NCBI GenBank assembly: GCA_041645215.1
Contig: JBAZQK010000006.1
Location: forward strand, 12,116 to 76,115
Length of the DNA stretch: 64,000 nt
Reading direction: 5' to 3'
Source of the DNA: Patescibacteria group bacterium
Lineage (GTDB): Bacteria > Patescibacteriota > Patescibacteriia > Veblenbacterales > UBA10138
Each line of letters begins with the position of its first letter. The stretch's first letter is position 1. The translations under genes were made by a program, and so were the position numbers. Shown piece after piece: positions 10,928 through 47,170 of this stretch. The notes beneath the pieces are model-generated. The model saw nothing but the letters and a program-made list of their open reading frames with translations, searched no databases and was not told where the DNA came from.

Positions 10928-10930
10928 ATT

Positions 10931-11509
10931 ATGCCCGGTAATACAACTTTGCTAGCGCTCACTTCAACCACCTTTTATTATAAAATTATGTTTTGTTTAG
11001 AATTATTTAATCAATTACCTTTGTTTAACCACGCTCGCGCTTAAGGCGGTTGAGCAAAGTTGATATACCGGGTATGCCCAGTAATACAACTTGGCTAGCG
11101 CTCGCCCAGCACCAGAGCCCCGAAGGAGAACAAGTTCCCTACGGGGCAGGCAAGCACGGTACTGGGCATCGCTCCAACGGTATATTTCCCGTCGGGCAGC
11201 GAGCGGCCAACAATCCCAATCTTTTGACTATTCTTGGTGCTTGGGCTCGCCTTAACCACTCCGTATCATAACTTTATGTCTTATCTAAAATTATTTAATC
11301 ATTTATTCTTGTCTAGCCACGCTCGCGCTGGGGGTGGTTTAGCCAAGTTGATATACTGGGTATGCCCAGTAACAAAACTTCACTATACTCGCAAAGGCAC
11401 TTAAGATTAATCCCCATTTATAAAACTATGATTTTAGTTTCAGCTAATTTAATTTCTCTTTCACTCGGCTCGTATAAAGTGCCTAGTGAAGTTATTGTTA
11501 CTGGGTATG
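10931..11509 (+). repeat. Second tandem array of family-1 ~140-bp hairpin repeats (three units, one with insertion, one variant)
   Basis: Unit A is 10931-11076. Unit B is 11077-11364, with a ~135-bp GC-rich insertion at 11107-11240. Variant unit C is 11365-11509 (cccagtaacaaaacttcact...agtgaagttattgttactgggtatg). The array begins directly after the rpoA stop and ends in the rplQ ATG. Confidence 0.8.
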
Positions 11510-12929: not shown

Positions 12930-13160
12930 CGGAGGCGGCGGAGGATGGATGCTTCCGCTATCACCCCCGACGTACATTAGTAGGACTTACGCGCTTGCCG
13001 CTTGCAGGGCTGGCGCAGGGACGACCCCTCAAGCGGCTTTGGCCAATTTCTTCGTTAAAACCTCCGCTTTTCGTTCATCCCGCCATGGCGGGACTCGTAC
13101 CACTTGCTCGGTTTTGCCTCGAACTTGGCTCAAACGCGTAAGTCCTAATTAGGTTGGAGT
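12930..13160. ncRNA. Candidate structured GC-rich element or small RNA of unknown class
   Basis: GC-rich island with a perfect 13-bp long-range pairing, 12981-12993 TAGGACTTACGCG with 13135-13147 CGCGTAAGTCCTA. Internal hairpins include GCCGCTTG...CAAGCGGC and CCCGCCATGGCGGG. The tracked ORF 12850..13152 looks spurious (runs of G/R). Confidence 0.2.
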
Positions 13161-13184
13161 ATCATTATTGGGTATTTTTTACCA

Positions 13185-14657
13185 ATGCGCTATAATGGAT
13201 TTATGGTTAGCGAATCAGGAGTCTTAGCCCGTAATACCAGTTATTTTACGCTCGCCCTCGTCGCCCAAAAGGTGATTTCTTTTTTATACTTTACATTTTT
13301 GGCGCGCATTTTAGGGCCGGCGGTAGTTGGTAAGTATGTTTTGGCCCTGGCGATTACAACCATCTTTAGTGTTTTAATTGATTTAGGTTTGGCTTCGGTT
13401 TTAACGCGTGAGGTCGCCAAACAACCAGACCGCGCCCAGGAATATTTTGGACAGGTTATCGGATTTAAAAGCATTGTCAGTTTGCTGGTAGTCGGTTTAG
13501 TGGTTGCCACAGTGAATATCATTGGTTACCCGGAATCAACCCGCCAATTAGTTTATTTGGCTTCCGCCGTGATGGTGCTTGATTCATTTACGTTGTCGGT
13601 TTATTCAACCATTCGGGGGTTCCAGAATTTATTATGGGAGAGTATTGGAACAATTTTGATGCAGGTGACGGTGGCGGTTATTGGCTGGTTGGTTGCCAGT
13701 TTTACTCATGATTTACGCATGCTAATGGCCGCTTTGATAATCGCGGCCGCGACTAACGCGGTTTACGCTTTAACAAAGATTAAATCGCGGTACCGATTGA
13801 GTTGGCGTCCGATATTTAGCTGGGCGGGCTGGCGCCATTTAGCCCGCCTGTCCTGGCCCTTTGCCGCCGCCGCCATTTTGACCAGAGTTTACGGTTACAT
13901 TGATTCGGTTTTGTTGTCGCTCTTAGCCAATGACACGGCGGTCGGAATTTACAGTGTCGCCTATAAATTGACGTTCGCGCTGCAATTCATACCCAGCGCC
14001 TTGGCGGCGTCGCTGTTTCCCGGTTTAAGTTTTTATTTTTCGTACCTGCCGGAAAAACTGGAGCAGACTTTTAGTTATGCCGTGGTCTATTTAAGCGCCA
14101 TCGCCCTGCCGATATCAATCGGCCTGATAATTTTAGCCGAGCCGGTTATAACGGCAGTTTATCCGGCTTACGACAATTCAATTCTGCCTTTGCAAATTTT
14201 GATGGCCAGTTTGGTATTTTTGTTTTTGACTTTCCCCATCGGTTCTTTGTTGCCGGCTTGCAACCGGCAAGTGCGCCATACTTTAAATATCGCCGTGGCG
14301 ACGGTTTTGAATGTAGCACTAAATTTATATTTGATTCCGCGGTTTGGCGTAGCTGGTGCCGCTATGGCTTCTTTGGTAAGCACGGTGGTTTTGTTCGGTT
14401 TGGGTTGGGCCGTGGTGGTTAAGATAATTGTTTTAAATAAACGTTTTTTGTGGCTCCGACTTAGCCGAGTTGCCCTGGCCGGCATCATTATGGGACTGAC
14501 AATTTGGCAGATCAGCAGTCAGGTAAATTTAGCGATTAGTATTTTATTTAGTGGCTTGGTTTATGCGGGCGCTTTAGTAGTTTTGGGCGGGGTTACTACC
14601 GAGGAGATAAAAAACTTGTTTAAAATTTTGCGCACGCGGACCGGTTTTAGGCCATAG
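13185..14657 (+). CDS. Polysaccharide biosynthesis protein / oligosaccharide flippase (Wzx, MOP superfamily)
   Basis: About 12-14 TM helices with an N-terminal conserved block typical of PST-family flippases. It sits in a glycosyltransferase context. Confidence 0.65.
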   Translation: MRYNGFMVSESGVLARNTSYFTLALVAQKVISFLYFTFLARILGPAVVGKYVLALAITTIFSVLIDLGLASVLTREVAKQPDRAQEYFGQVIGFKSIVSLLVVGLVVATVNIIGYPESTRQLVYLASAVMVLDSFTLSVYSTIRGFQNLLWESIGTILMQVTVAVIGWLVASFTHDLRMLMAALIIAAATNAVYALTKIKSRYRLSWRPIFSWAGWRHLARLSWPFAAAAILTRVYGYIDSVLLSLLANDTAVGIYSVAYKLTFALQFIPSALAASLFPGLSFYFSYLPEKLEQTFSYAVVYLSAIALPISIGLIILAEPVITAVYPAYDNSILPLQILMASLVFLFLTFPIGSLLPACNRQVRHTLNIAVATVLNVALNLYLIPRFGVAGAAMASLVSTVVLFGLGWAVVVKIIVLNKRFLWLRLSRVALAGIIMGLTIWQISSQVNLAISILFSGLVYAGALVVLGGVTTEEIKNLFKILRTRTGFRP

Positions 14658-14660
14658 TTT

Positions 14661-15761
14661 ATGTCCAGACGAATTTTACTAATTACCACCGATTTTCCGC
14701 CCCGCCGCGGCGGAGTGGCGCGGTATTACGCCGGGATATTTAATAATCTGCCGGCAGTTTCGGTTTTAACTGACATTGGATCCGCTGCCACCGACAGCCA
14801 TATTATGCGGCAGCCGCTGCTATATCGTTTTATTTGGCCGCAGTGGTTGCCGTTATTATGGCTAGTGCCCTACTATCGTTTTTTTAGACAAATTGAATGG
14901 TGTCTGGCTGGCCAAATTTTACCAATTGGCACGGCTTTGTGGATTATAAAGAAAACTTTTGGTTGGCGTTATGGCGTGTTTGTGCATGGTTTTGATTTGG
15001 GTTTAGCTAAGCTGAATCGGCGTAAGCTGTGGTTAGTCCGACAAATATTAGGCAGTGCCGATGTCGTGGTGGCGAATAGCCAATTTACCGCTGATTTGGC
15101 GCGCGCCAGCGGCGCGCTGGAAAATTTAATTATAGTTTATCCTTGCAGCGATTTGGCCGTTCAAAACGTGGCGGCTGACTCCGTCAGCCAACTAACAGAC
15201 GAATATTGTTTGGCCGGCAAAACTGTAATTTTAACTGTGGCGCGATTGGTTAAGCGCAAAAACATAGCTTTAGTTATTGAATCAATCGCCGCTCTGCACA
15301 ATGATTTTGCTGATTTAGTTTATGTGGTGGTTGGCGATGGACCGGAAATGGTCAACCTGCGCCATCAAGCCAAATTGTTTAAAGTACCGACAATTTGGCG
15401 CGGCGACATTGATGATGCGGAATTAGCCGTTTGGTATAATTTATGTGATTTGTTTGTACTCGTACCTTTAGCTAACGGGGCGGACATTGAAGGTTTTGGC
15501 ATAGTTTATTTAGAGGCGCAGGCGGCGGCCAAGCCGGTTATTGGCAGTCCGGTTGGCGGCGTAAGCGAGGCTGTGGGCGGGGCCGGGTTGTTGGCTAAAG
15601 ATAAGATTGAGTTAGTGGAAGCTTTGCGTCAACTGTTGCTTAATCCGGCATTAAGGAGTAAATTGGGAAACTTGGGGCGTGAACGAGTAAACCGCGAGTT
15701 TATCTGGCCGCGGCAATTAAAAAAATTATCAGCCTTTTTTTATGACCGACCAGACAATTGA
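14661..15761 (+). CDS. Glycosyltransferase family 4 (GT-B)
   Basis: EGFGIVYLEAQAAAKPVIGSPVGGVSEAV is the GT4 E-x7-E-like C-terminal motif. Confidence 0.7.
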   Translation: MSRRILLITTDFPPRRGGVARYYAGIFNNLPAVSVLTDIGSAATDSHIMRQPLLYRFIWPQWLPLLWLVPYYRFFRQIEWCLAGQILPIGTALWIIKKTFGWRYGVFVHGFDLGLAKLNRRKLWLVRQILGSADVVVANSQFTADLARASGALENLIIVYPCSDLAVQNVAADSVSQLTDEYCLAGKTVILTVARLVKRKNIALVIESIAALHNDFADLVYVVVGDGPEMVNLRHQAKLFKVPTIWRGDIDDAELAVWYNLCDLFVLVPLANGADIEGFGIVYLEAQAAAKPVIGSPVGGVSEAVGGAGLLAKDKIELVEALRQLLLNPALRSKLGNLGRERVNREFIWPRQLKKLSAFFYDRPDN

Positions 15762-16986
15762 TATTGTGATGTTTAATATGTCCAGTTATGCCGACTGGCA
15801 GTCTGGTATTGAAAACCGGAATTTTCACGTATTGCACAATTTACTGCAAGATCGGCGAGTGCGCAAAATCGTGGCTGTTGATTATTTGCCGTTTACTTGG
15901 CGGCGGGCGGTTAAAGAATGGTGGCAAGGTGTAATCGGCGGGGTGGATGGTCAAGTTATGGCGCGCGGCTGGTTTTATAAATTAACCGCGGCGCGTGGAT
16001 CCAGTATTGCCCTGGCCGGCTACAGTATCCCGGGATTTGATAGTGCGGCCGTTTCCTACAAACTGTTTGTTTATACGGATATTGCTTCGTTGTGGTCACA
16101 GCGGCGAGTCTATCAGCGTTTAACCAAACAATTAGACCGTCTAGGCATAGCCAATCCGGTTATATGGTCGTATTTGCCAACCACGGTTGGTTATTTGGGA
16201 ATGTTTAAACAATCAGTTACGGTGTTTGACGCGGTTGACAATTGGCTGACACACTCCAGTTATAAAAAAATATTGGATCGTCTAAAGTTGAATTATCGCA
16301 CTATTGGCCAGCAAGCCGATCTGATTTTTACAACGGCTGACGATTTAGTTAAATTTTTTGGTGAACGTAAAAATTGCGAATTTGTGCCGAACGGCGTTAA
16401 TCTGGCTCACTTTGCCGCGCCCTCCAAGTTAGTGGGGCGTGATATTATGCGGATTCCGCGGCCAATTATCGGCTATATCGGTACTATCCAAGAAGATCGC
16501 ATTGATTTGGATTTGGTGCGTTATGTGGCGGAAAAGAATCCTAATAAATCAATTGTCATGGCCGGACCGGTTTGGAAAACCTTCGCCCGCGAGGTTAAAA
16601 CTAAACTTGGTTATTTAAGTAATGTTTATTTACTCGGGCGGATTAAGTATCAGGAATTTGCCTCCTATTTTGTCAATTTTGACGTGGCCATAATTCCTCA
16701 TAAAATAAATGATTTCACGCGGCATACTAATCCCATGAAACTATACGAGTATTTGGCTTCGGGTAAGCCGATTGTGGCGACACCGACCGGAGGAGTAGAG
16801 CTGTTTCAGGATTATATCTATCTGGCCCAAACTCCCGCCGAGTTTAACGCCGCTGTTATTCAGGCCTTGCAAGACGCCCCCGGCGGCAAAATTAAGTCAC
16901 GCTCAAATTTAATGAAGCATCATACTTGGCAGCAGCGCACTAATCATATGCTTGATAGGTTGTTCGCGGTTATTAAAAACCACTAG
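15742..16986 (+). CDS. Glycosyltransferase (GT4-like, GT-B fold)
   Basis: NPMKLYEYLASGKPIVATPTGG motif. Overlaps the upstream GT gene. Confidence 0.6.
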   Translation: MTDQTIDIVMFNMSSYADWQSGIENRNFHVLHNLLQDRRVRKIVAVDYLPFTWRRAVKEWWQGVIGGVDGQVMARGWFYKLTAARGSSIALAGYSIPGFDSAAVSYKLFVYTDIASLWSQRRVYQRLTKQLDRLGIANPVIWSYLPTTVGYLGMFKQSVTVFDAVDNWLTHSSYKKILDRLKLNYRTIGQQADLIFTTADDLVKFFGERKNCEFVPNGVNLAHFAAPSKLVGRDIMRIPRPIIGYIGTIQEDRIDLDLVRYVAEKNPNKSIVMAGPVWKTFAREVKTKLGYLSNVYLLGRIKYQEFASYFVNFDVAIIPHKINDFTRHTNPMKLYEYLASGKPIVATPTGGVELFQDYIYLAQTPAEFNAAVIQALQDAPGGKIKSRSNLMKHHTWQQRTNHMLDRLFAVIKNH

Positions 16987-17305
16987 AACAGTGGAGCGCT
17001 TAATCACCCCGCAGTAAATGTTACACATCACTACGGGGCAAGCTGGAACACCGAAAGAACACTTAATCACTGGAACGCTTTAACACTTGTCAGCCCTAGG
17101 CTGATCTCCGCCGGCCCGCCTGCCTAAGCCTATACCTTCATGAACACTTAATCACATGAACACTTTAACACTTGAACAAATTTGATCCAGTGATCCAGTG
17201 TTCTAGTGTTATAGTGATATCGTAAGGAGAACGGCGGACCCCGCCGATTCGGCGGGGCGGGCAGGCAATGTAAAATTTAAAATTCAGAAATTTAATTTTT
17301 ATTTT

Positions 17306-17350
17306 TTCATGCCTGAGGCAGATCCGCCTCTGGCGGAGATATTTACATTT
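17306..17350 (+). promoter_or_regulatory. Conserved upstream motif TTTTTCATGCC..AGGCAGATCC...GGCGGAGATATTT (copy 1)
   Basis: Near-identical to 53255-53320. Both copies lie 55-60 nt upstream of a start codon. The region 16990-17300 also carries GC-rich modules and GAACACTTAATCAC x3 direct repeats. Confidence 0.35.
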
Positions 17351-17403
17351 TAAATTTCCTATGGCTTGGAATAAAGGTCGTTTTAAACTAAAATGTATTC
17401 ATT

Positions 17404-18270
17404 ATGTACAAGCCCGTGTATTCAGTTTTGATAGTATCATGGCAGGTGCGTGATTATTTGCGACTCTGTTTACGGGCGCTGGCTAGACAGCTTAAAGACG
17501 CTGCCGTTGAGGTTATAGTGGTGGATAACGCGTCGTCTGACGGCAGCGCGCAAATGGTGGAGCGGGAATTTGAATGGGTGCGTTTAATTAAGGCCAATCG
17601 TAATCTGGGCTTTGCGGCGGCGACTAATATGGCGGCGGCGGCGGCGAGCGGCGATTATTTTGTTTTATTGAATCCGGACACCGTGGTCGGCGATTCATTT
17701 TTCAGCGCGCTGGCCGATTTTTTCAGGAATCATCCAACAGCCGGTGTTGTTGGTGGAAAGATTATAAATCCGGACGGCACGCTTCAGCCTTCGGTCAGGC
17801 GGTTTCCTGATTTATTATCGCAGACGCTGGTTTCACTTAAATTAAGCCATTTTTTCCCGGGGTTGTTTAGCAAATATTTAGCAACGGATTTTGATTACAA
17901 TCAGGAAGCAAAAGTTGACCAGGTAATGGGCGCCTGCTTTATAGTGCCGAAGGATGTTTGGCAGAATTTGGGCGGGTTTGATGCCAATTTTTTTGTGTGG
18001 TTTGAAGAAGTGGATTTTTGCCGTCGCCTTAAGGATGATAATGGTGAGATTTGGTATTCACCGCAAATCACCGTTCAACATCAGCCCCGCAGCAGTGCGC
18101 GGCAGTTGACGGCGTTTAGGCGTCACTATATTTACAGTCGCAGTCTGGTTTATTATTTTTGCAAGCATAAATCAACTTTGGCAGGTTTAATTTTAGTATT
18201 AGCCGCCGCCCCGTGGCTGATTATCAGTTATGTCGTCCAAGTTTTTCAGCCTAAATTTCCCCACTCGTAA
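17404..18270 (+). CDS. Glycosyltransferase family 2
   Basis: VVDNASSDGS...LLNPD...GGKIINPDG...DVDFCRRL. Confidence 0.7.
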   Translation: MYKPVYSVLIVSWQVRDYLRLCLRALARQLKDAAVEVIVVDNASSDGSAQMVEREFEWVRLIKANRNLGFAAATNMAAAAASGDYFVLLNPDTVVGDSFFSALADFFRNHPTAGVVGGKIINPDGTLQPSVRRFPDLLSQTLVSLKLSHFFPGLFSKYLATDFDYNQEAKVDQVMGACFIVPKDVWQNLGGFDANFFVWFEEVDFCRRLKDDNGEIWYSPQITVQHQPRSSARQLTAFRRHYIYSRSLVYYFCKHKSTLAGLILVLAAAPWLIISYVVQVFQPKFPHS

Positions 18271-19933
18271 ACTTAATTCAGCTAATCGGCTGTGGTTTTA
18301 CGCCAGCGGGTTAGTCTGGCTGTTGAGTTTGGATATTTTATCCTGGTTGGGCTGGGATTATCCCGTGGTCGGTTCTCTCATGGCTTTAACCATCGGCCTT
18401 GTTTGGTTTTATATCGCCAGTCGAAATATTACAATTGGCGTCGGTTGGTTGATTTTAGAATTGATAATTGGTTCATTTGGCCTCCTGTTTAATTTGAGCT
18501 TTGGCAGTACTACTATTTCGCTGCGGTTAATTCTTTTTTTATTCGCGCTCGGCTTAATAAATTGGCGATTATGGTTTAAGCGTGATTACGTATATTTGCT
18601 TAATCGTTCAGTTTTATGGTACGGCTTGGCTTTGCTGGGTATCGGTTGGGCGTTGATGGTGGCGTTGGCGCGCGGTAATGCGTGGGGCAGTATTTTTTTG
18701 GATTTAAACGGCTACCTTTATTTACTACTGTGGCCGCTGTTTGTTATTATGGCAGCCACGGATGAATCATGGCTGTCAACCGTAAAGAAATTTGTATACC
18801 TTGGTCTGGGGTGGTTGGGCTTGCGGACTATTATAATATTTTATCTTTACAGTCATTTTGACAGCAGTTATCTATGGCCGCTTTATCAGTGGTATCGAGA
18901 TTTAGGTTTGGGTGAAATAACTTACATTAGCGGTAATTATTTCCGGATTTTTTCGCAAAGTCAAATTTGGTCTTTGTTGGCGGCGGCCGCCGGATTTATT
19001 TATCTCGCGGCCGATAGCGGTATTAAAATGCTAAAAAATCGTAATTACCTGTTATATTTAATGATTTGGTTTAATCTGGTAATTGTCATTATAAGTTTGT
19101 CGCGAAGTTTTTGGTTGGGCGGTTTAACGGTTTGGTTATTAATCAGTCTGTGGCTAGTTGTTAAAAAATGGCAGCAAGCAATACGTTATGTAATAATTTC
19201 AGGGGTGATTATGTTATCAGCTATGGGGGCTGTGCGTTTTATCAACCAGGTTCCGTGGCCGGCGGTGCCGGCGGCGAGCGGTAATGCCCTGGCCAGTCGT
19301 TTTAGCAGTAATGAAGCGGCCGGGCAGAGTCGCTGGAATTTGCTTAAGCCATTGGTGAACCAAATTAACACCGCTCGACTGGTGGGATATGGCTTGGGCG
19401 CGGATATAACTTATCACTCGCTTGATCCTCGTGTCGTGGCGTCCACGGCGGGCGGAATAGGCGTAGTAACAGTGACGGCGTTTGAGTGGGGCTATTTAGA
19501 TATGTGGCTTAAGTTTGGCTTAGTCGGTTTATTAGCTTTGTTGGGATTTTTACTGCAGGGCTGGGGGAGGAATTTTTTTAAGTGGTGGCGGGCCGTTGAT
19601 GTCAAAGCCAGCTGGTTTATTCATCCCTGGCTGGCCTTGCTGGTGGTAAATATTACCACGCCATATTTAAATCATCCTTTAGGTTTAGGCGCTATAATGT
19701 TGATATTGGCGGTGGTTTTACAAGGAGATGGTTCCAAAACCCTTTTCGTGGCGAAAGCTATGATTTTTGAACGAGACAAGGAAGATGAGCAAAATGCCCG
19801 GAAACGTAGCAGTAGCTACGATGAGGACATTTTGGGAAATCTGACGCAGTCGCAGTCAAAAAACAGAGATTGCAGCAGAAATAGGGTTTTGGAACCATCT
19901 CAAGATCAGGCCGGTAAAAAATATGTTAATTAA
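18230..19933 (+). CDS. O-antigen polymerase/ligase-like polytopic membrane protein (Wzy/WaaL-like); C-terminal ~65 aa encoded by a MITE copy
   Basis: At least 10 TM helices. The C-terminus ...TLFVAKAMIFERDKEDEQ...VLEPSQDQAGKKYVN is encoded by the family-2 repeat at 19727-19899. Confidence 0.55.
   Translation: MSSKFFSLNFPTRKLNSANRLWFYASGLVWLLSLDILSWLGWDYPVVGSLMALTIGLVWFYIASRNITIGVGWLILELIIGSFGLLFNLSFGSTTISLRLILFLFALGLINWRLWFKRDYVYLLNRSVLWYGLALLGIGWALMVALARGNAWGSIFLDLNGYLYLLLWPLFVIMAATDESWLSTVKKFVYLGLGWLGLRTIIIFYLYSHFDSSYLWPLYQWYRDLGLGEITYISGNYFRIFSQSQIWSLLAAAAGFIYLAADSGIKMLKNRNYLLYLMIWFNLVIVIISLSRSFWLGGLTVWLLISLWLVVKKWQQAIRYVIISGVIMLSAMGAVRFINQVPWPAVPAASGNALASRFSSNEAAGQSRWNLLKPLVNQINTARLVGYGLGADITYHSLDPRVVASTAGGIGVVTVTAFEWGYLDMWLKFGLVGLLALLGFLLQGWGRNFFKWWRAVDVKASWFIHPWLALLVVNITTPYLNHPLGLGAIMLILAVVLQGDGSKTLFVAKAMIFERDKEDEQNARKRSSSYDEDILGNLTQSQSKNRDCSRNRVLEPSQDQAGKKYVN
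19727..19899 (+). mobile_element. MITE-like element family 2, copy 1 (perfect 14-bp TIR GATGGTTCCAAAAC / GTTTTGGAACCATC)
   Basis: Collinear homology (~70-75% identity over ~170 bp) to 46942-47112. This copy is embedded in the 3' end of CDS 18230..19933. Confidence 0.75.
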
Positions 19934-20978
19934 TCATCCTAAATTATCAATTCATTTGGTGACGCATAATGGCGCGGCTTGGTTGCCGTATTGTTTAGAG
20001 TCGTTGTCGCGCCAGCTTAGCATGGATTTTTTCCTGCTCATCATTGACAATGCGTCGCTGGATAATTCAGTTTTAATAGTGAATGATTGGTTAAGAGCTC
20101 ATGCCGCGCTGTTTAGCAGGGCCCGGGTTATACAGCATAAACAAAATTTGGGTTTTGCCCGCGCCCATAACCAAGCCCTGGCCTGGAGTCAAAGTGAATA
20201 TGTAATGTTGCTTAATCAGGATGTGATTTTGGCTGATAATTATACTTTGGACATAATGAAATTTATGGACACCACGGCGGCGGCCGCGGCCGTGACTGGT
20301 AAAATCAGGCAATGGGATTTTATAGCTGATACTTTTTATTATGAAAGTCTTAAGGATAAATCAGAGGCAAAGATTGACACCGTTGGCTTAAAAATCAGCC
20401 GCGGCCGTAAAGTTACTGAAATTAATCAAGGTCAGGCCGATAATAACAAACCCCTGTGGCCGCAACCGGTATTTGGCGTTTCGGGCGCCGCTCCGCTTTA
20501 TCGTCGCGCGTGTTTGGAGGCTGTCAGTTCGGCTGGCGAAATTTTTGACGAAGATTTTGTGTCTTACAAAGAGGATGTTGATATGGCGTGGCGTCTGCGG
20601 TTGGCCGGTTTTAGCGCTTATTGCGTACCAAGCGCGATTGCCTATCATGATCGTGGTTTGGCGCAAGCTAGTGACAGCTCGGTGCTAGATTTAATTAAAC
20701 ATCGTTCCGGTTGGCCACAAGAGTTGAGAATTGCCTCGGTGGCGAATCATTGGGGAGTATTAGTTAAGAATGATAGTTGGTACAACTGGGCGCGCGACTG
20801 GCCGTGGATTATTGGTTTTGAGTTTAAGAAGCTGGCCTATTTATTATTATTTGAACCACAGGTGTTAGGCGGCGGTCTGCGGCGTTTTTTTGCGGTTTTG
20901 CCCCGATTTTTGCGTAAGCGCCGTTTGTTAAAAACAACTCACCGTCTTAAACCGGCGGAGTTGCGTCGCTGGTGGTAA
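19923..20978 (+). CDS. Glycosyltransferase family 2
   Basis: LLIIDNASLDNS...; GT2 DxD-region-like LLNQDV. Confidence 0.6.
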   Translation: MLINHPKLSIHLVTHNGAAWLPYCLESLSRQLSMDFFLLIIDNASLDNSVLIVNDWLRAHAALFSRARVIQHKQNLGFARAHNQALAWSQSEYVMLLNQDVILADNYTLDIMKFMDTTAAAAAVTGKIRQWDFIADTFYYESLKDKSEAKIDTVGLKISRGRKVTEINQGQADNNKPLWPQPVFGVSGAAPLYRRACLEAVSSAGEIFDEDFVSYKEDVDMAWRLRLAGFSAYCVPSAIAYHDRGLAQASDSSVLDLIKHRSGWPQELRIASVANHWGVLVKNDSWYNWARDWPWIIGFEFKKLAYLLLFEPQVLGGGLRRFFAVLPRFLRKRRLLKTTHRLKPAELRRWW

Positions 20979-21799
20979 GGTTAGTAAAATTAGCTATGAA
21001 ACTCTCAATTATTATTTTAAATTATCACAGCGCGGGATTGGTGCGGCAGTGCGTGCGCGGTGTTTATAAGGCGCCGCCGCCGCTGGAGTTTGAAGTTATT
21101 GTGGTTGATAACGCCTCTAGCGACGGGGTGGGCGAATGGCTAAAAGTCAATTACCCGCCAGTGGTTTTTGTGCAATTAAAAAAGAACCGCGGTTATTCCG
21201 CCGGTAATAATGCCGGTATCAAGCAGGCACAAGGTGAATATGTACTGATACTTAATCCGGATGTCGTTATTGCCAAGGGCCAGCTTGAGCAAATGGTAAA
21301 GTTTATGAATAAAAATAAATCGGTTGGTTTAGCCGGTCCGCGATTGACAAATCCCGACGGCAGTCTGCAATATTCAACTTACCATTGGCCGTCGTTCTGG
21401 CTGCCCATTTGGCGGCGAACTAGATTGGGCCAATGGTCAGTTTGGGCGCGGCAGGTAAAAAAATATCAAATGATGGATTGGGGTCATCAGGATAACCGTC
21501 CGGTTGATTGGTTGTTGGGGGCGTGTTTAATTGCCCGGCAAACGGCCTTGAAAACGGTTGGCTTATTAGACGAGAGGTATTTTTTGTATGTGGAAGACAC
21601 TGATTGGTGCCGGCGGTTCTGGCAGGCCGGCTGGCAAGTATATTACATAGCCGAAGTCAGTTTAACGCATTTTCACGAGCGCCTGTCGGCCCAGGCCGGC
21701 TGGTCGGCTTTGTTTAAAAAAGTTACCTGGATACACATCAGTTCCTGGTTAAAGTATTTTAGGAAATGGGGTTTAAAAGTGCCCCAGTATAATAATTGA
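20972..21799 (+). CDS. Glycosyltransferase family 2
   Basis: VVDNASSDG...KKNRGYSAGNNAGIK...LILNPDV...YVEDTDWCRR. Confidence 0.7.
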   Translation: MVRLVKLAMKLSIIILNYHSAGLVRQCVRGVYKAPPPLEFEVIVVDNASSDGVGEWLKVNYPPVVFVQLKKNRGYSAGNNAGIKQAQGEYVLILNPDVVIAKGQLEQMVKFMNKNKSVGLAGPRLTNPDGSLQYSTYHWPSFWLPIWRRTRLGQWSVWARQVKKYQMMDWGHQDNRPVDWLLGACLIARQTALKTVGLLDERYFLYVEDTDWCRRFWQAGWQVYYIAEVSLTHFHERLSAQAGWSALFKKVTWIHISSWLKYFRKWGLKVPQYNN

Positions 21800-21840
21800 A
21801 CTCCCGCTTTAATAAGGGGGAGTTCAGGTTTATTGAAAAA

Positions 21841-22224
21841 TTATTTTAAATTGGCTAAGAATTGAGAAAAAGCTTGTTTTAATCTGCCGCCATAGAGTTT
21901 ATAACCGTCTAAACTGTTGAATATTTTTGTCAATTCTTCCGGAATTTTGGATAAATTATTTTTGTTGATTTTATCTTTGGTAATAACGGAATATCTAGTG
22001 TCAATGATGATGACTTCACCAGCGGAGTTATAAACAATAAAAATATCAGGGTCAATGTATTCATTTAGGGTAGAATAATTTTCTGCAGCTTCGAGGGTTA
22101 AGGCCACATTGATAAGACCAATGGTAATTTTTTTTGGCAAAGGTTTACCATCATATTTAAAGTTTATTATGATAAGAGGTTTACCAGCGTAATAGCTTAT
22201 AACGGCTTCATTGTTAGGGTCCAT
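21841..22224 (-). CDS. Hypothetical protein
   Basis: 127-aa ORF with a coding-like composition. No motif. Confidence 0.35.
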   Translation of the reverse strand: MDPNNEAVISYYAGKPLIIINFKYDGKPLPKKITIGLINVALTLEAAENYSTLNEYIDPDIFIVYNSAGEVIIIDTRYSVITKDKINKNNLSKIPEELTKIFNSLDGYKLYGGRLKQAFSQFLANLK

Positions 22225-22248
22225 TTTTTCTCCTGAAGTTAGTTATTT

Positions 22249-22494
22249 TTATCGATAGAAACCTGGTGGCGGTGGTCCAAATATAATAGTGATGCTAAGT
22301 ATTAACAATAGAATACCGATAATCGTAAATGCTATAGCTGATAGCATTAAAGTCCGTTTCGTTTTTTTTGTTTGCGGTTTTGTTTGCGGTTGACAAGCCC
22401 AGTACGTATAATGTATGGCCAATCCCCAAGCAAGTAATGTAATTATAGGCAGGACTATTTTTATTAATTGAGCTGCTGCTGAAATTGTTTCCAT
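22249..22494 (-). CDS. Small membrane protein (2 TM)
   Basis: Two hydrophobic helices flank a basic linker. Confidence 0.3.
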   Translation of the reverse strand: METISAAAQLIKIVLPIITLLAWGLAIHYTYWACQPQTKPQTKKTKRTLMLSAIAFTIIGILLLILSITIIFGPPPPGFYR

Positions 22495-22633
22495 ATTTGA
22501 CTCCTTGATTTGTTAGTGAACGATTTATTTAATTTGTTCAGTTCAATTGGGTGTATTTTAGCTCTTTTAATGTTTTTGTCAAGGCAGAGTTGGATGTTGA
22601 CTTATACCCTTTTTTTAGCTAAAGTAAGCTGGT

Positions 22634-23641
22634 ATGTTTACTAAAAAAATCGGTATTGATTTAGGCACAACTTATACGTTGGTTCACGTTCCCGGGCGCG
22701 GAATTATTATTAATGAGCCGTCGGTGGTGGCTATTTCAACAGTTGATCGTTCGGTTTTGGCAGTGGGCGAAGAAGCCAAGGAAATGCTGGGACGGACGCC
22801 GGATACAATAGTGGCACTGCGGCCGTTAAAGGATGGAGTAATTGCTGATTATCGCACGACCGAGGCCATGTTGCGTTATTTTATAAACAAGGCTTTGGGT
22901 GGTATGAGGTTTTTTAAACCCGAGGTTATGATAGCGGTTCCGGCCGGTATAACGTCAACCGAGCGCCGGGCGGTTATTGACGCCACGATCGCGGCCGGAG
23001 CCAAAGCGGCTTATATAATCAAAGAGCCAATCGCGGCGGCCATTGGGGCTAATATACCGATTGGTTCGGCATCTGGCCATATGATAGTTGATATGGGCGG
23101 CGGCACTTCTGAAGTGGCTATTATTTCCTTGGGCGGAATTGTCGCTAACACCTCGGTGCGAACTGGCGGCAATAAGCTTGACGCGGCCATTGGGGAGTTT
23201 ATCCGAAAAAAATATGGTTTGGCGATTGGCGAACAAACCGCCGAGGAAATAAAAATTAAAATTGGTTCGGCCCTGTACTTGCAGGACAAGCTTACTATGG
23301 ATGTTAGAGGCCGTGATATGATATCGGGTTTACCGCGGACCGTCCCCGTCAGTTCCGATGACATAACCGAGGCCATTCAAAGTGTGTTGGATGGAATCAT
23401 TCACGCGGTTAAATCGGTTTTGCAAATTACCCCGCCGGAATTATGCGCCGATGTTATTGATAAGGGTATGGTGCTGTCGGGTGGCACGGCGTTGCTGCGC
23501 AACCTGGACAAATTATTCACCCAAGCCACCGGCGTTACGGCTTACGTGGCCGACGAGTCATTATTATGTGTGGCTAAGGGCACTGGTGTCGCTTTAGATA
23601 ATCTGGAATCGTATAAGCGGAGTATTTTGTCCACTAAATAA
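22634..23641 (+). CDS. mreB: Rod shape-determining protein MreB
   Basis: KIGIDLGTTYTLV...NEPSVVAI...DMGGGTSEVAIISLGGIV... (actin-like ATPase motifs). Confidence 0.85.
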   Translation: MFTKKIGIDLGTTYTLVHVPGRGIIINEPSVVAISTVDRSVLAVGEEAKEMLGRTPDTIVALRPLKDGVIADYRTTEAMLRYFINKALGGMRFFKPEVMIAVPAGITSTERRAVIDATIAAGAKAAYIIKEPIAAAIGANIPIGSASGHMIVDMGGGTSEVAIISLGGIVANTSVRTGGNKLDAAIGEFIRKKYGLAIGEQTAEEIKIKIGSALYLQDKLTMDVRGRDMISGLPRTVPVSSDDITEAIQSVLDGIIHAVKSVLQITPPELCADVIDKGMVLSGGTALLRNLDKLFTQATGVTAYVADESLLCVAKGTGVALDNLESYKRSILSTK

Positions 23642-23710
23642 TGGTGATAATTCTCAAATCCTAAATGCTACTCAACCTATAAAATTCCGATTTAAAACAT
23701 TAAAGATAAG

Positions 23711-23850
23711 TTAAAAGTTAGAAGTCAAAAGTCAAATCTGTCGTACCTGCGGTAGATCTCCCGCAGGGAGACAACGCAAAATTAAAAACTATAAAACTTT
23801 TGACTTTTACCATGTGCTTTTGATTTTTGACTTTTGAATTTTGAGTTAAC
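23711..23850. repeat. Intergenic palindromic element with AGTCAAA heptamer arms and central hairpin
   Basis: Left arm gttaaaagttagaagtcaaaagtcaaa pairs imperfectly with right arm tttgatttttgacttttgaattttgagttaac. Central hairpin CCTGCGG-tagatctc-CCGCAGG at 23747-23768. Direct ttttgactttt repeats. Confidence 0.4.
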
Positions 23851-23877
23851 ATGATTTAGGTTTTAAGTTTTATTGCG

Positions 23878-25182
23878 ATGTCTTTACCTGATATATTATT
23901 TCTACTGTTAATTCCCTTTGCCGTCCTGGCGTGGCGGCGATGGGATTGGGCGCTGTTGACCATATTGGCGCTGTTGCCGTCGTATTTGTGGCGTCTGACA
24001 GTGGGAGGGATACCAACGACCTGGCTGGAAGCGGCGATTTATATTTTGTTAATAGTCGTGCTGTTGCGCAGTCAGTGGTGGAATTTTATTAAATCAAACT
24101 GGCTGACTAACCGCAGTTGGATAGTATTAGGGTTAGGTTGGGCGCTGGTGGCGATAGCGGGCGTAGTGGTTGCTCCGGATAAGCGTTTGGCCCTTGGTAT
24201 TTTAAAAGGTTGGATAATGGATCCGCTGGTAGTGGCGGTTTTGTTTTATTACGCGACAGCGGCGGCAGTCAGCAAAATTGAATGGTGGCAAAAAGTAACG
24301 GCGGCATTTTGGTGCGGTGGCGTTTATACAAGTTTGTCCGCCTTAATAATGGCGTATAGCAGTAATGCGACCCGTTTTAACGGGTGGTATGATTCGCCCA
24401 ATGTGCTGGCGATGTATTTACTGCCGATTTTGGCTATGTCATTATTGGTTACTCGGCGCCAAGAATTTAAAAATACTCCAAGTCTGTTACTGAAAATCGG
24501 GTGGTGGGGCGGCAACGCAATTATGGCCGCGGCTTTATTTGGCACCAATTCTTATACCGCGCTAATCGCCCTGGCGGCCGGGGCGCTAATGTATGTATTA
24601 TTTTCAATTAACTATAATAGAATTCTGGCGGCCGGTTTAGGCTTTAGTATTGTGGTGGTTGGCATATTACTGCCGTTTGTTATGACGCCTGCCAATTATT
24701 GGTTCCCGTTGACTCATTACAACAGCACTTATAAACTTGATTCCGGACAAATGCGTTTAATTCTGTGGCGCGAGGCCGGTCAGGTAATACAAACTAAGCC
24801 GCTATGGGGGTTGGGCTTGGGTCAATGGCAGCCTTATTTTTTAAATAAAGTAATGCCTTATAAACCGGAACTTAGGCAACCGGGTGTGACCCTAGAGTTG
24901 TATTATGCCAGTTTATTTCCGCATAATTTGTGGTTGACGACTTGGTTGAATTTGGGGTTGCTAGGGGTGATAATTTTGGCAATTTTGGCGGGCAAATTAT
25001 TTAGGGCAGTAACTAGGACTAAGGCCGTTGAATTGATGGTGGTTTTGGCAATAATTTTGACGCAGGGAATGGTTGATACGCCGTTTTATAAAAATGATTG
25101 GTCTATAATGTGGTGGGTTATGGTGGCGGCGGTAGCTTGGCTAAACAACGACGCCCGCTTAAGTGCCAGTAAAATCGGGTAA
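23878..25182 (+). CDS. O-antigen ligase/polymerase-like membrane protein (Wzy_C-like)
   Basis: About 10-12 TM helices with a large periplasmic loop. Paralogous in architecture to 18230..19933. Confidence 0.5.
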   Translation: MSLPDILFLLLIPFAVLAWRRWDWALLTILALLPSYLWRLTVGGIPTTWLEAAIYILLIVVLLRSQWWNFIKSNWLTNRSWIVLGLGWALVAIAGVVVAPDKRLALGILKGWIMDPLVVAVLFYYATAAAVSKIEWWQKVTAAFWCGGVYTSLSALIMAYSSNATRFNGWYDSPNVLAMYLLPILAMSLLVTRRQEFKNTPSLLLKIGWWGGNAIMAAALFGTNSYTALIALAAGALMYVLFSINYNRILAAGLGFSIVVVGILLPFVMTPANYWFPLTHYNSTYKLDSGQMRLILWREAGQVIQTKPLWGLGLGQWQPYFLNKVMPYKPELRQPGVTLELYYASLFPHNLWLTTWLNLGLLGVIILAILAGKLFRAVTRTKAVELMVVLAIILTQGMVDTPFYKNDWSIMWWVMVAAVAWLNNDARLSASKIG

Positions 25183-25184
25183 TT

Positions 25185-26195
25185 ATGACTAAGCAAGCGC
25201 CGTGGCAAATTAATAATCCGGTTGGCCGATATTTATCGCAATTGATTGATAATGACAGTTTGAGTCATGCCTATCTTATTTATGGTCAGTCGGGAGTAGG
25301 TAAGGTTGATGTGGTTGAGTTTTTTTTACAAAAATTATTTTGTTTATCGGCCACTGATAAGCCCTGCGCCAAATGCTCGGCTTGTCAACAGGTTAAGTCG
25401 CGGCATTTGCCGGACGTTTACTGGATAGCCAAAGCTAACGGGCGACAGGATATTTTAATTCAACAAATACGAGACTTGTGGGCGTTCGTTAAAAACCGAT
25501 CATACAGTGGGGGGTGGCGGGCCGTAGTTATTAATTTGGCCGATGACATGAATGCTGAAGCCGCCAATGCCTTACTCAAAATATTGGAGGAGCCGGCCGA
25601 ACGGGTGATATTTATTTTGGTGGCGGTCAATTGGCGTAAAATACCGCGCACTATCGTGTCGCGTTGTCAGTTGCTGCCACTCGGTTTGATGCCACTAGAC
25701 GAGCTGGCAAAATTAATTGAGGCCGCGGGAGCCGAGCGGCAATCAGCCGTTGAGTTGGCCGCTTTAGCCGGGGGGCGAGTTTCCCGAGCGTTAAATTGGT
25801 TGAATAATAATAGTGAACCGGCTGTGCGCGTGCAGTTGGCCGGTAAACTTATGGCCGCGGCCCGCCAGAATTCTTGGTCGGATTGGCAACTGTTAATTAA
25901 TGATTATTTGATTAAGCCCGGCGATAGCTTATCCCCAGCTCAATTAAGCCAAGACTTATTAGTAGTGGCGCAGGAAGTCGGGCAGGATATTTTAAGAACC
26001 AAACTGGGTTTGGGGCAGTTTATAACTTATCAAAAATACCAATCTGAGCTAAAATTACTGGCAGATTCATGGTCGTATCAGTTGCTCAAGTTTTGGTTCG
26101 AGCAGTTGGCAACGGCTCAGACCAAGATTATGGCTAACGGCAATGTTAAATTGACCTTAGAATGTATGATAGCTAATATAATAGATTATGAATAA
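25185..26195 (+). CDS. holB: DNA polymerase III delta' subunit
   Basis: AYLIYGQSGVGK... Walker-like block, zinc module CAKCSACQQ, then ...ILEEP. Confidence 0.7.
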   Translation: MTKQAPWQINNPVGRYLSQLIDNDSLSHAYLIYGQSGVGKVDVVEFFLQKLFCLSATDKPCAKCSACQQVKSRHLPDVYWIAKANGRQDILIQQIRDLWAFVKNRSYSGGWRAVVINLADDMNAEAANALLKILEEPAERVIFILVAVNWRKIPRTIVSRCQLLPLGLMPLDELAKLIEAAGAERQSAVELAALAGGRVSRALNWLNNNSEPAVRVQLAGKLMAAARQNSWSDWQLLINDYLIKPGDSLSPAQLSQDLLVVAQEVGQDILRTKLGLGQFITYQKYQSELKLLADSWSYQLLKFWFEQLATAQTKIMANGNVKLTLECMIANIIDYE

Positions 26196-26328
26196 ATATA
26201 AATTGATTCTCCTTCGCCTAAAATTCCGGGCGATAGCTCGATGGACATCCAGCCTTCGCAGCCGTTTCGGCGGAGTAGGCTGGAGGCTTGTTTCACTTCG
26301 TCATCGCTCCGCGAGATCTAGCGAAGCC

Positions 26329-27429
26329 ATGACGAGATCTCACATAGCGAGAGCGGCTACGGCGGAATTCCGCTGGGATAGCACGGCCAAAGGTAAGTGG
26401 AGCTTCATTTGGTTGGTTTTAATAACGCTGGTTTTAGTTGGCGCCGGTTGCAGCTTTAAAACTGCCAGTCGAACTGCCGATGGCGGGGTTTACCGTTCGG
26501 ATGATTTGGGTAAAACCTGGCAGCAAAAAGTATTTGCCGGTCAGCAGAATAATAAGAACGTTACCATTGCCAGTCTTGATATTCGGGATTTGCAATTTTC
26601 CGCGGCTGACACAGGCGTCTTGGCGGCCGTGGCCGGCGATAAGGGATTGTTAATAACCAGCGATGGCGGTGAACAGTGGCGGCAAATTTATCAACAACCA
26701 GCCACCGCCGTTGCCATTCACCCCACTGCTAAAGACACTTTTTACATAGCCGCGGGCAACCGAATTTATCGGACGACCGATAGCGGGCAAAATTGGCAAA
26801 CCGTTTATTTAGACACTACGCCCGACGCGCAAATAACCGCTGTGGCCACCAACCGAGCCAACGATAAGCAAATTTTGGCCGCCAGCTCGCGGGGCATTCT
26901 TTTACAAAGTCTTGATTCCGGAAATTCCTGGGAGCAACTTTACTTATTTAAGGCGGCGATAGCAAAAATATTGTTTAACCAAGTTAATGGTAAGTTGATT
27001 TTTGTGGCCCAGACTGACGGCCGCTTGTGGCGGTCGTATGATAGTGGCGTTAGTTGGACTGATTTATCAAACACTATTAAACAGTTGAATCCGCGCCGGG
27101 GGAGTTATCAGGCTATGACTTTTGTGGCGGACACGGCCAATATTTTATACGCCACCCAAAATGGATTAATGCTCGGGAGCGAGGCTGGTGAAAAGTGGTC
27201 TAATTTAAAACTGGTAACTGCCCCCGGCGCGGTAGCGCTGGTGTCGTTGGCGGTGCATCCCAAGTTGCCTAATAATATTTTTTACACTACTGCTACCGGT
27301 TTTTATCGCAGTGCTGATAAGGGCGAGACTTGGCAAACCAGTTCACTGCCGTCGTCGCGTCTACCTTCCAGTATGGCTATCAATCCATCAGCCAATAATC
27401 AAATTTATTTAGGATTTACCCGTAAATAA
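26329..27429 (+). CDS. BNR/Asp-box repeat beta-propeller lipoprotein (Ycf48-like)
   Basis: Lipoprotein-type signal (LVLVGAGC). Repeated S-x-D-x-G-x-T-W motifs (YRSDDLGKTWQ, TSDGGEQWR, YRTTDSGQNWQ, QSLDSGNSWE, WRSYDSGVSWT, YRSADKGETWQ). The tracked ORF begins at 26188; the internal ATG at 26329 precedes the signal peptide. Confidence 0.6.
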   Translation: MTRSHIARAATAEFRWDSTAKGKWSFIWLVLITLVLVGAGCSFKTASRTADGGVYRSDDLGKTWQQKVFAGQQNNKNVTIASLDIRDLQFSAADTGVLAAVAGDKGLLITSDGGEQWRQIYQQPATAVAIHPTAKDTFYIAAGNRIYRTTDSGQNWQTVYLDTTPDAQITAVATNRANDKQILAASSRGILLQSLDSGNSWEQLYLFKAAIAKILFNQVNGKLIFVAQTDGRLWRSYDSGVSWTDLSNTIKQLNPRRGSYQAMTFVADTANILYATQNGLMLGSEAGEKWSNLKLVTAPGAVALVSLAVHPKLPNNIFYTTATGFYRSADKGETWQTSSLPSSRLPSSMAINPSANNQIYLGFTRK

Positions 27430-27434
27430 AATAT

Positions 27435-46859: not shown

Positions 46860-46941
46860 ATCTATCAGTCTTTAGCCCTTTACGGCGGGACAAGCGCGAA
46901 AGGGTAAATGGATAAGCCAGACCTAGAGCAAAACATAATGA

Positions 46942-47112
46942 GATGGTTCCAAAACTCTTTCGTGGCGAAATTTCAGTTTTTCTTGCGAGACGAGGAAGGC
47001 GAGCAAAAAGAATTGAAACGTAGTAGAACTACGGTGAAATCCTTTTTGCGAAGCCTGACGAAGTCGCAGCCGAAAAGATGAAATTACAGCAGAAATGAGT
47101 TTTGGAACCATC
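46942..47112 (+). mobile_element. MITE-like element family 2, copy 2 (intergenic)
   Basis: TIRs GATGGTTCCAAAAC (46942-46955) and GTTTTGGAACCATC (47099-47112). Homologous throughout to 19727-19899. The tracked ORF 46923..47111 (-) is spurious. Confidence 0.75.
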
Positions 47113-47170
47113 TCAATATCATTTTACATAACCCTACCAAATTAGTAGGGTTATGTTATAATGGCAAAGT

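What the first reader, a model, noticed from the sequence alone, without database searches (positions are those of the whole stretch)
19727..19899. MITE-like element (TIR GATGGTTCCAAAAC) fused into the 3' end of the Wzy-like gene, creating a new C-terminus
A ~170-bp element with perfect 14-bp terminal inverted repeats occurs twice: at 19727-19899 and 46942-47112 (~70-75% identity). The first copy lies inside the reading frame of the O-antigen-polymerase-like gene. The last ~65 codons and the stop of that gene are element-derived (…TLFVAKAMIFERDKEDEQ…VLEPSQDQAGKKYVN). This is an example of MITE exaptation into coding sequence. The second copy is intergenic, next to the stand-alone ATP-grasp gene.
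Basis: seen in the sequence. Interest (0 to 1): 0.6.

Follow-up and report, generated by a model that had tools for sequence, protein, structure and literature searches.

The report
Palindromic MITE inserted in-frame in wzy
A 177-base mobile DNA palindrome has landed in frame near the end of a cell-surface polysaccharide gene of an uncultured groundwater bacterium, adding 60 amino acids but leaving the gene's own ending intact, which is a new example of a known kind of event.

Summary
Two copies of a 175-177-nt full-length palindrome lie at 19725-19901 and 46940-47114. Both have perfect 16-nt terminal inverted repeats (GAGATGGTTCCAAAAC), and the copies are 77% identical.

Each copy is flanked by a 3-bp direct repeat (AAG, AAT). 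Ten of 12 independent insertion sites found here and in other Patescibacteria assemblies carry perfect A/T-rich 3-bp duplications. It is a genuine MITE family. No transposase partner was found.

Element plus duplication is 180 nt, or 60 codons, and the frame read through the element is open. Residues 499-558 are therefore inserted, while the last nine codons (DQAGKKYVN) and the stop codon are the gene's own. Orthologues are about 500 aa, and excision in silico gives a 507-aa protein.

Nothing supports exaptation:
- The insert gets low model confidence.
- Its substitutions look neutral.
- No other host-gene fusion turned up in a protein search that was not exhaustive.

Three further results:
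- The hairpin arms covary through strictly Watson-Crick changes.
- The element is far better conserved between distant lineages than housekeeping genes are.
- In near-identical strains, synteny breaks exactly at the element ends.

Verdict: a new member of a known kind, of moderate interest.

The parts
19722..19724 (.). Left copy of the 3-bp target-site duplication (AAG) of element copy 1
   Evidence: Sequence. The same AAG follows the element at 19902-19904.
19725..19901 (+). Element copy 1 (w1): 177-nt full-length palindromic MITE inside the Wzy-like ORF
   Evidence: (I4). Copies 98% identical sit at other loci (L036 538-714, L087 2966-3142).
19725..19740 (+). Left terminal inverted repeat GAGATGGTTCCAAAAC
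19886..19901 (-). Right terminal inverted repeat (reverse complement of the left one, 16 of 16)
19902..19904 (.). Right copy of the target-site duplication (AAG)
18230..19933 (+). Wzy_C / O-antigen-ligase-like membrane protein gene (567 aa). Residues 499-558 are the insertion.
   Evidence: Identical to P0126 = MFA4818853.1 of a 'Patescibacteria group bacterium' MAG.
19904..19933 (+). Native 3' end of the gene (codons DQAGKKYVN plus TAA), retained downstream of the insertion
   Evidence: In-silico excision. Orthologue tails are of similar length.
19923..20978 (+). Downstream family-2 glycosyltransferase gene. Its ATG overlaps the native wzy stop by 11 nt.
   Evidence: Same gene order in distant relatives L002 and L081.
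46937..46939 (.). Left target-site duplication (AAT) of copy 2
46940..47114 (+). Element copy 2 (w2): 175-nt, intergenic, 77% identical to copy 1
   Evidence: (I3). The same insertion is seen at broken contig ends in two other samples (L082-L084).
47115..47117 (.). Right target-site duplication (AAT) of copy 2

Best explanation
The feature is a non-autonomous DNA transposon (MITE) of a previously undescribed family found in Patescibacteria (CPR) genomes. It is 175-177 nt long, has 16-nt perfect terminal inverted repeats, folds as a palindrome over its whole length, and encodes no transposase.

Inferred: a transposase supplied in trans recognises the two identical ends. It inserts the element at A/T-rich trinucleotides, and staggered cleavage and repair duplicate 3 bp.

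Shown: copy 1 landed in the non-conserved cytoplasmic or extracytoplasmic tail of a Wzy-like gene, just after its last membrane segment. Element plus duplication is 180 nt, and the phase in which it is read has no stop codon. The ORF therefore gains 60 residues (499-558) and returns to its original last nine codons and stop.

Inferred: this is the least disruptive possible outcome. Ribosomes read through and unwind the roughly -76 kcal/mol hairpin. The native stop/start overlap with the downstream glycosyltransferase gene is kept. The insertion is thus a tolerated, probably neutral passenger rather than a new functional domain.

Shown: the copies also act as portable homology. In strains 99.9% identical in flanking DNA, synteny ends exactly at the element ends. 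The elements at those junctions carry hybrid end variants. There the Wzy ORF really does acquire foreign C-termini.
For: Mobility:
- Perfect 3-bp direct repeats flank 10 of 12 independent sites whose two flanks are known: AAG, AAT x4, ATT, TTA x2, TAT x2.
- Copies occur in both orientations at unrelated loci.
- Six copies 98-100% identical lie in one MAG labelled 'Candidatus Saccharibacteria'.
- Short-read contigs break inside the element.

In-frame insertion:
- Searches show it. The closest orthologue without the element is 505 aa (P0002, 59% identity).
- The same junction appears in independent assemblies from NCBI, ENA and JGI.

No protein-level constraint:
- w1 against the Saccharibacteria subtype gives 5 synonymous and 14 non-synonymous codon differences.
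- Insert pLDDT is 34-75, against 80-94 across most of the core.
- The inserted peptide has no Pfam match.

Palindrome maintained:
- Of 65 pairs, 15 show changes on both sides and only one is a G-U. No shuffle out of 500 reaches this, and slid-partner controls give 0-1.

Recombination:
- L001 matches window 13136-19901 at 99.93% and stops at 19901. L086 matches window 19725-29363 at 99.89% and starts at 19725.
- Four of the 5 mismatches in L001 lie inside the element.
- L001 combines the w1-type left end (C10) with T149/A168 and the right flank of copy B, which is seen intact in L087.
Against: - No autonomous element or transposase with these ends was found. The window has none. The roughly 0.6 Mb of fetched loci gave none. 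Plasmid and phage collections gave no match.
- No empty-site allele of either window copy was recovered.
- Two sites lack a perfect duplication: L006 has ATT/AAT and L087 has TTA/TTT.
- Whether the 567-aa protein is made and active is unknown.
- Some alternative junctions could be assembly chimeras at a near-identical repeat. This applies especially to L091, the 701-aa fusion.
Confidence: 0.85

Rival explanations
1. The MITE replaced the 3' end of the gene, so the last ~65 codons and the stop are element-derived. The new tail is an exapted (functional) C-terminal domain.
For: The ORF does run through the element. The reading frame DGSKT.FVA..IFERDKEDE...VLEPS is also open in the Saccharibacteria subtype and in the L088 relative. 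Two open frames out of 6 in that subtype has a shuffle probability of about 0.017.
Against: Excising 180 nt restores a 507-aa protein with the same last nine residues and the same stop, so the ending is native. Substitutions are consistent with neutrality (5 synonymous, 14 non-synonymous). The insert has low pLDDT. The word-index-limited protein search found only tiny ORFs on intergenic copies, and it also missed P0001. The insertion is absent from all orthologues at 59% identity or less.
Confidence: 0.07
2. It is a REPIN- or IS200/IS605-type palindromic repeat, moved as a single-strand hairpin by a RAYT/TnpA(Y1) enzyme rather than by a DDE transposase acting on inverted ends.
For: The whole element is a hairpin. 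Its arms covary by strictly Watson-Crick changes, with a single G-U. That is what a DNA hairpin intermediate would preserve. Two 98%-identical copies share a symmetric change in both ends, T10/A168.
Against: Elements moved by Y1 enzymes do not make target-site duplications (established knowledge). Here 10 of 12 sites have perfect 3-bp duplications. No RAYT or TnpA gene was seen in the window.
Confidence: 0.05
3. It is a structured RNA gene or cis-regulatory RNA hairpin (terminator, RNase III site, sRNA) conserved for that function, not a mobile element.
For: The fold is very stable and shows covariation. Several copies sit within a few bases of stop codons.
Against: There is no Rfam match even at E up to 1. 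Copies occur in both orientations relative to neighbouring genes and carry target duplications. G-U pairs are almost absent, so both strands fold equally. No consensus terminator tail follows the hairpin.
Confidence: 0.03
4. The element is really a small protein-coding gene (about 59 aa), or a mobile coding module, that became fused to wzy.
For: In L088-L090 a relative is preceded by AAGGAGG-N5-ATG. It is called as a 59-aa ORF that is identical in three samples.
Against: The codon substitution pattern is consistent with neutrality. The w2 subtype has a frameshift and stops in that frame. The peptide has no family match. The nucleotide palindrome is what is conserved, not the peptide.
Confidence: 0.03

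Closest known systems
Rickettsia palindromic elements (RPEs; Ogata et al. 2000, as summarised in PMC10969869)
   Same: Both are short palindromic repeats of about 100-180 bp. Both can sit inside a protein-coding gene in frame, lengthening the protein without destroying it.
   Different: RPEs are found in frame in dozens of genes, and each encodes a conserved peptide (PMC10969869). Here only one of at least 13 sites is inside a conserved gene. The peptide evolves neutrally. The element has classical inverted ends with 3-bp duplications. No sequence relationship to RPEs is known.
Bacterial MITEs that form long hairpins in transcripts: Correia/NEMIS of Neisseria, ERIC/IRU of enterobacteria
   Same: All are small, non-autonomous and hairpin-forming, and are often inserted next to or within transcribed regions. 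They can make in-frame fusions and serve as recombination hot spots (PMC10969869).
   Different: The sequence, host phylum (Patescibacteria) and duplication differ: 3-bp A/T-rich here, against TA for Correia (from established knowledge). RNase III processing and promoter effects, shown for Correia, are untested here.
Tourist-type MITEs of PIF/Harbinger, and bacterial IS5-family subgroups with 3-bp duplications (for example the IS1031 group)
   Same: They share a 3-bp A/T-rich target duplication (TTA/TAA/AAT/TAT) and short inverted ends. This is recalled knowledge and a lead only.
   Different: No transposase was found, so the superfamily is not established. IS3 and IS30 family members also make 3-bp duplications.
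REPINs / RAYT-associated REP doublets
   Same: Both are hairpin-forming repeats whose arms stay complementary.
   Different: REPINs make no target-site duplication and depend on a RAYT gene. Here duplications are present and no RAYT gene was seen.

Membership tests
MITE (miniature inverted-repeat transposable element) | Small size (under about 500 bp) with no transposase ORF | tested here: met
   The element is 175-177 nt. The longest internal ORFs are under 60 codons and have no family match.
MITE (miniature inverted-repeat transposable element) | Terminal inverted repeats | tested here: met
   16 of 16 nt perfect in both window copies and in most relatives.
MITE (miniature inverted-repeat transposable element) | Target-site duplication of fixed length | tested here: met
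   A perfect 3-bp duplication at 10 of 12 independent sites. Chance per site is about 0.02.
MITE (miniature inverted-repeat transposable element) | Multiple dispersed copies, with insertion polymorphism | tested here: met
   At least 13 sites in at least 3 lineages. Near-identical copies occur within a genome. An element-free version of the 145-aa gene's 5' end exists (L092/L093 against L091). No empty allele of the two window sites was found.
MITE (miniature inverted-repeat transposable element) | A cognate autonomous IS with the same ends | tested here: inconclusive
   None was found in the window, in about 0.6 Mb of fetched loci, or in plasmid and phage collections. Whole genomes could not be searched.
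Rickettsia palindromic elements (RPE-like behaviour) | Frequent in-frame residence in many unrelated protein-coding genes, with a conserved encoded peptide | tested here: not met
   Only the wzy site and its recombinant derivatives are inside a conserved gene. The word-index-limited peptide profile search found only 59-81-aa ORFs on intergenic copies, and it missed P0001. Codon changes are consistent with neutrality.
Rickettsia palindromic elements (RPE-like behaviour) | Palindromic repeat that preserves the host reading frame | tested here: met
   A 180-nt insertion with an open frame and the native tail retained. Full-length hairpin.
IS5 / PIF-Harbinger-type (Tourist-like) MITE | 3-bp A/T-rich target duplication | tested here: met
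   Duplications seen are AAG, AAT, ATT, TTA, TAT.
IS5 / PIF-Harbinger-type (Tourist-like) MITE | Ends matching those of a DDE transposase-bearing IS of that family | not testable with these tools
   No IS reference library was available and no partner was found.
REPIN / RAYT system | No target-site duplication; associated RAYT gene | tested here: not met
   Duplications are present. No such gene lies in the window.
Known structured RNA families (Rfam 15) | Match to a curated covariance model | tested here: not met
   No hit at gathering thresholds over the window, nor at E up to 1 over 19650-19980.

The most novel reading that the evidence does not exclude
The family may not be a passive MITE. 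It could be a palindromic element whose two arms are actively kept complementary, by hairpin-templated correction or by a single-strand hairpin transposition intermediate that still makes 3-bp duplications. It would spread horizontally between deeply divergent CPR lineages. It would also drive both chromosome rearrangement and modular protein fusions, such as the Wzy-element-membrane-protein 701-aa ORF. That would make it an RPE-like engine of protein-tail evolution in reduced genomes.
Probability: 0.1. Interest if true: 0.55.

Novelty: new member of a known kind. Interest (0 to 1): 0.35.

Why it matters
MITEs have hardly been described in Patescibacteria/CPR. A full-text search pairing the two terms returned only two unrelated papers.

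This case gives a clean, dated example of how a selfish palindrome can lengthen a membrane protein without breaking it or its operon. It also shows the same repeats acting as break points for genome rearrangement between near-identical strains, and as a cause of contig breaks in CPR assemblies.

There is a practical point for annotation. The 567-aa protein (MFA4818853.1) is a 507-aa Wzy-like protein carrying a 60-residue transposon-derived insert.

The general phenomena are already known from Rickettsia, Neisseria and enterobacteria: in-frame MITE insertions, MITEs as recombination hot spots, and hairpin MITEs in transcripts.

Tried and rejected
- **Rfam.** Searches at gathering thresholds over the window and at E up to 1 over the element found nothing. 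No tRNA or tmRNA was found.
- **Autonomous partner.** I scanned genome, metagenome and viral collections for the ends. Most single-end hits are chance matches in coding DNA of unrelated organisms. No inverted partner end lay at IS-like distance. No repeated transposase-like ORF occurred among family loci. Nothing matched in plasmids or phages. Literature strings gave only a primer.
- **Hits from other phyla.** The genome scan also hit Desulfobacteraceae, Verrucomicrobiae and Marinobacter. These share only the GGTTCCAAAAC core inside different inverted repeats and are not homologous.
- **Promoter and terminator scans** around both copies gave nothing above shuffle expectation that involves the element ends.
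- **Simple inversion or one reciprocal exchange** to explain L001 plus L086 was rejected. The new flanks (TTT and TAA) do not match, so at least three copies were involved.
- **Empty sites.** None was found for either window copy. The closest Wzy without the element is 59% identical. Contigs at the w2 site break inside the element.
- **P0004 insert.** The 60-residue insert at the same place in the Wzy homologue P0004 is unrelated, GC-rich DNA, not this family.

Full report
**1. What is in the sequence**

The window holds two copies of one short element. Refined limits are 19725-19901 (177 nt) and 46940-47114 (175 nt). Shuffles give 0.54 matches at up to 2 mismatches.

The perfect inverted repeat is 16 nt, GAGATGGTTCCAAAAC. 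The copies are 77.0% identical in a global alignment (alignment).

The element is a palindrome along its whole length. Arms of 53 nt are 77-79% complementary (I3 and I4). Single strands fold as one long hairpin of -75.9 and -80.7 kcal/mol, with z-scores of -9.7 and -10.4. There is no Rfam family match and no tRNA.

**2. Evidence that it is mobile**

Each window copy is flanked by a 3-bp direct repeat: AAG|element|AAG and AAT|element|AAT.

A scan of one genome per species found six 177-nt copies in one MAG labelled 'uncultured Candidatus Saccharibacteria' (CAYILQ01). They are 98-100% identical to each other and lie in both orientations at unrelated loci. The other five hits of that scan share only a short core and are unrelated.

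A metagenome scan plus blastn, and a peptide search, added further copies:
- L021, a w2-type copy.
- L036, one w1-type and one w2-type copy.
- L031 and four contig-end fragments from Hainich groundwater.
- L087, found through the peptide search.

Of 12 independent sites with both flanks known, 10 have perfect 3-bp duplications: AAG, AAT x4, ATT, TTA x2, TAT x2. The exceptions are L006 (ATT/AAT) and L087 (TTA/TTT). Chance agreement per site is about 0.02.

Short-read contigs repeatedly end inside the element, as expected for a dispersed repeat.

Together these features satisfy the definition of a MITE: small size, inverted ends, fixed-length duplication, dispersed near-identical copies and no coding capacity. 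I found no transposase partner. The enzyme family is therefore inferred only from the 3-bp A/T-rich duplication. IS5/PIF-Harbinger-like is the best lead, and IS3 or IS30 remain possible.

**3. What happened to the gene**

ORF 18230-19933 is a Wzy_C / O-antigen-ligase-like membrane protein. It is identical to MFA4818853.1 of a 'Patescibacteria group bacterium' MAG.

The listed homologues are mostly about 490-510 aa. Those aligned end about 10 residues after the conserved TTPYLNHPLGLG...membrane segment.

Element (177 nt) plus one duplication (3 nt) is 180 nt, exactly 60 codons. The phase in which the element is read is the only one of its six frames without a stop. Removing 19725-19904 gives a 507-aa protein ending ...LILAVVLQDQAGKKYVN*.

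So residues 499-558 are inserted. The last nine codons and the TAA are the gene's own. That TAA overlaps the ATG (19923) of the next glycosyltransferase gene.

The gene order GT2-Wzy-GT2-GT2-...-MreB-Wzy_C is shared with relatives only 42-45% identical. The window arrangement is therefore ancestral, and the insertion is recent. It is absent from the nearest orthologue, at 59% identity.

**4. Is the insert functional?**

Nothing says so.
- In an AlphaFold2 model most of the core scores pLDDT 80-94. The insert is a low-confidence helix and coil scoring 34-75.
- The peptide has no Pfam match.
- Between w1 and the Saccharibacteria subtype, codon differences in the translated frame are 5 synonymous and 14 non-synonymous. 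That is the ratio expected without protein-level selection.
- A profile of the peptide, searched against about 5.8 billion proteins, returned only four 59-81-aa ORFs called on intergenic copies. That search uses a word index and missed P0001, so it is not exhaustive.

I infer that the insertion survives because it is the least harmful configuration. The protein core is untouched and the frame and native stop are kept. Translating ribosomes pass through the hairpin to the overlapping start of the next gene.

**5. Properties of the family beyond the finding**

(a) The hairpin is maintained. On five distinct copies, 15 of 65 pairs show changes on both sides and only one cell is a G-U. None of 500 shuffles reaches this count, and slid-partner controls give 0-1.

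Strict Watson-Crick complementarity means both strands fold equally. That points to a DNA-level cause rather than an RNA function. Possible causes are identical binding sites at both ends, arm-to-arm correction, or origin by fold-back.

Two 98%-identical copies (L036a, L087) share the symmetric end variant T10/A168, where w1 has C10/G168.

(b) The element is 86.5% identical between the window lineage and the CAYILQ MAG. Shared housekeeping genes are far more diverged. mreB and rpsM are 67-68% identical in nucleotides. MreB is 61%, RpoA 51% and S4/S9/S11 41-44% identical in protein. This suggests horizontal spread of the family among co-occurring CPR bacteria.

(c) Copies are recombination break points. 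Contig L001 (ENA ERZ27249422) is 99.93% identical to window 13136-19901 and diverges exactly after base 19901. Contig L086, from the same assembly, is 99.89% identical to window 19725-29363 and diverges exactly before 19725.

Four of the five mismatches in L001 lie inside the element. L001's element has the w1 left end (C10) but T149/A168, and it has the right flank of copy B. Copy B is seen intact between a VTT-domain gene and dsbA in L087.

L086's element has a T10-type left arm and the w1 right end. In L001, the first 140 nt next to the wzy flank differ at several positions from the last 140 nt next to the GT2 flank in L086. These stretches cannot belong to one copy, so this rearrangement is unlikely to be an assembly chimera.

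In that strain the Wzy ORF ends ...VLKPSLYDFGADGGSVLEY*, a truly foreign tail.

A third assembly (L091, JGI 3300028028) joins wzy-element in frame to a 145-aa membrane protein gene, giving a 701-aa ORF. The same gene has no element in L092 and L093. This junction could be an assembly chimera, because the central part of w1-type copies is identical.

**6. Comparison with known systems**

In-frame MITE insertions are described for Rickettsia palindromic elements and for ERIC, BOX and others. MITEs are also known recombination hot spots (PMC10969869).

This family behaves like an RPE at one site only. It fails the RPE hallmark of frequent in-frame residence with a conserved peptide. It differs from Correia elements in its duplication, and from REPINs in having a duplication at all.

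It is best filed as a new MITE family in Patescibacteria, that is, a new member of a known kind.

**7. Verdict**

It is a MITE and it is in the gene, but it is an in-frame internal insertion, not a replaced C-terminus. Exaptation is not shown.
- Interest is moderate to low (0.35). The value lies in the clean anatomy, the CPR host, the covarying palindrome, and the strain-level rearrangements and fusions at the element.

Noticed in passing
window 12976-13152: A second MITE-like family. It is a 167-nt element (12981-13147) with inverted ends TAGGACTTACGCG, flanked by a 5-bp direct repeat ATTAG. In the 99.9%-identical strain L001 only a 28-nt remnant (TAGGACTTACGCGCTTGCGTAGGTCCTA) sits between the same ATTAG repeats. 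Two copies 88-89% identical lie in L021 (8422-8590, 9073-9238).
   Followed up: partly
window 7921-8465 and 10930-11407: Arrays of palindromic repeats with a period of about 142 nt (core TAGCCAAGTTGATATACTGGGTATGCCCAGTAATACAACTTGGCTA). They flank the rpsM-rpsK-rpsD-rpoA block on both sides. Copy number differs between the window and L001.
   Followed up: no
window ~29500-43600: A low-GC stretch (34-36%, against 42-47% elsewhere). It holds seven paralogous ORFs of about 480-510 aa that share a 137-nt conserved block. These appear to be PEP-utilizer / PPDK_N-type genes, next to the stand-alone PPDK_N gene at 45849-46859.
   Followed up: no
L002 6487-6666 (protein P0004), compared with L081 (P0003): A different Patescibacteria lineage carries an unrelated, GC-rich, hairpin-rich in-frame insertion of 60 residues. 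It sits at the equivalent spot, just after the last membrane segment, of its Wzy homologue. The closest relative lacks it, and it is not repeated in the 11.7-kb locus. The Wzy tail seems to be a permissive landing site.
   Followed up: partly
L091 628-2733 (P0127); L092 10001-10438; L093 497-934: A 701-aa ORF in a JGI contig equals Wzy + element + a 145-aa membrane protein, fused in frame at the element's right end. That protein (P0125, WC621_01330) has only a weak VKOR-like match, E 0.015. Two other samples show the gene without any element. This is either a real MITE-mediated gene fusion or an assembly chimera.
   Followed up: partly
L001 11496-11672, L086 9803-9979, L087 2966-3142: In strains 99.9% identical to the window, synteny breaks exactly at the two ends of element copy 1. 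The junction elements carry hybrid end variants (C10 with A168, T10 with G168). Copy B (VTT gene-element-dsbA) supplies L001's right flank.
   Followed up: yes
L036 2599-2905: A w2-type copy carries a nested second small palindromic insertion with its own inverted ends (CCCCGTTAGAAATT...AATTTCTAACGGGG). It also has an extra internal hairpin that is seen in L021 too.
   Followed up: no
L088 1396-1581 (also L089, L090): A relative with the same interior (77-78% identity) has different termini (TAGAACTCATTTCAAAAC) and no recognisable duplication. It is preceded by AAGGAGG-N5-ATG and is called as a 59-aa ORF (P0124) that overlaps the next gene's ATG. The ORF is identical in three samples.
   Followed up: partly
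L012 2386-2390: One Saccharibacteria-MAG copy inserted within a stop codon. Because the element starts with GA, the TGA stop is regenerated (T of the duplication plus GA of the element). Several other copies lie within a few bases of stop codons.
   Followed up: no
window 34697-34722 and 35059-35084: A perfect 26-nt palindrome GCTCCCATGCTCTAGAGCATGGGAGC occurs twice, 362 nt apart (D14 and I18).
   Followed up: no
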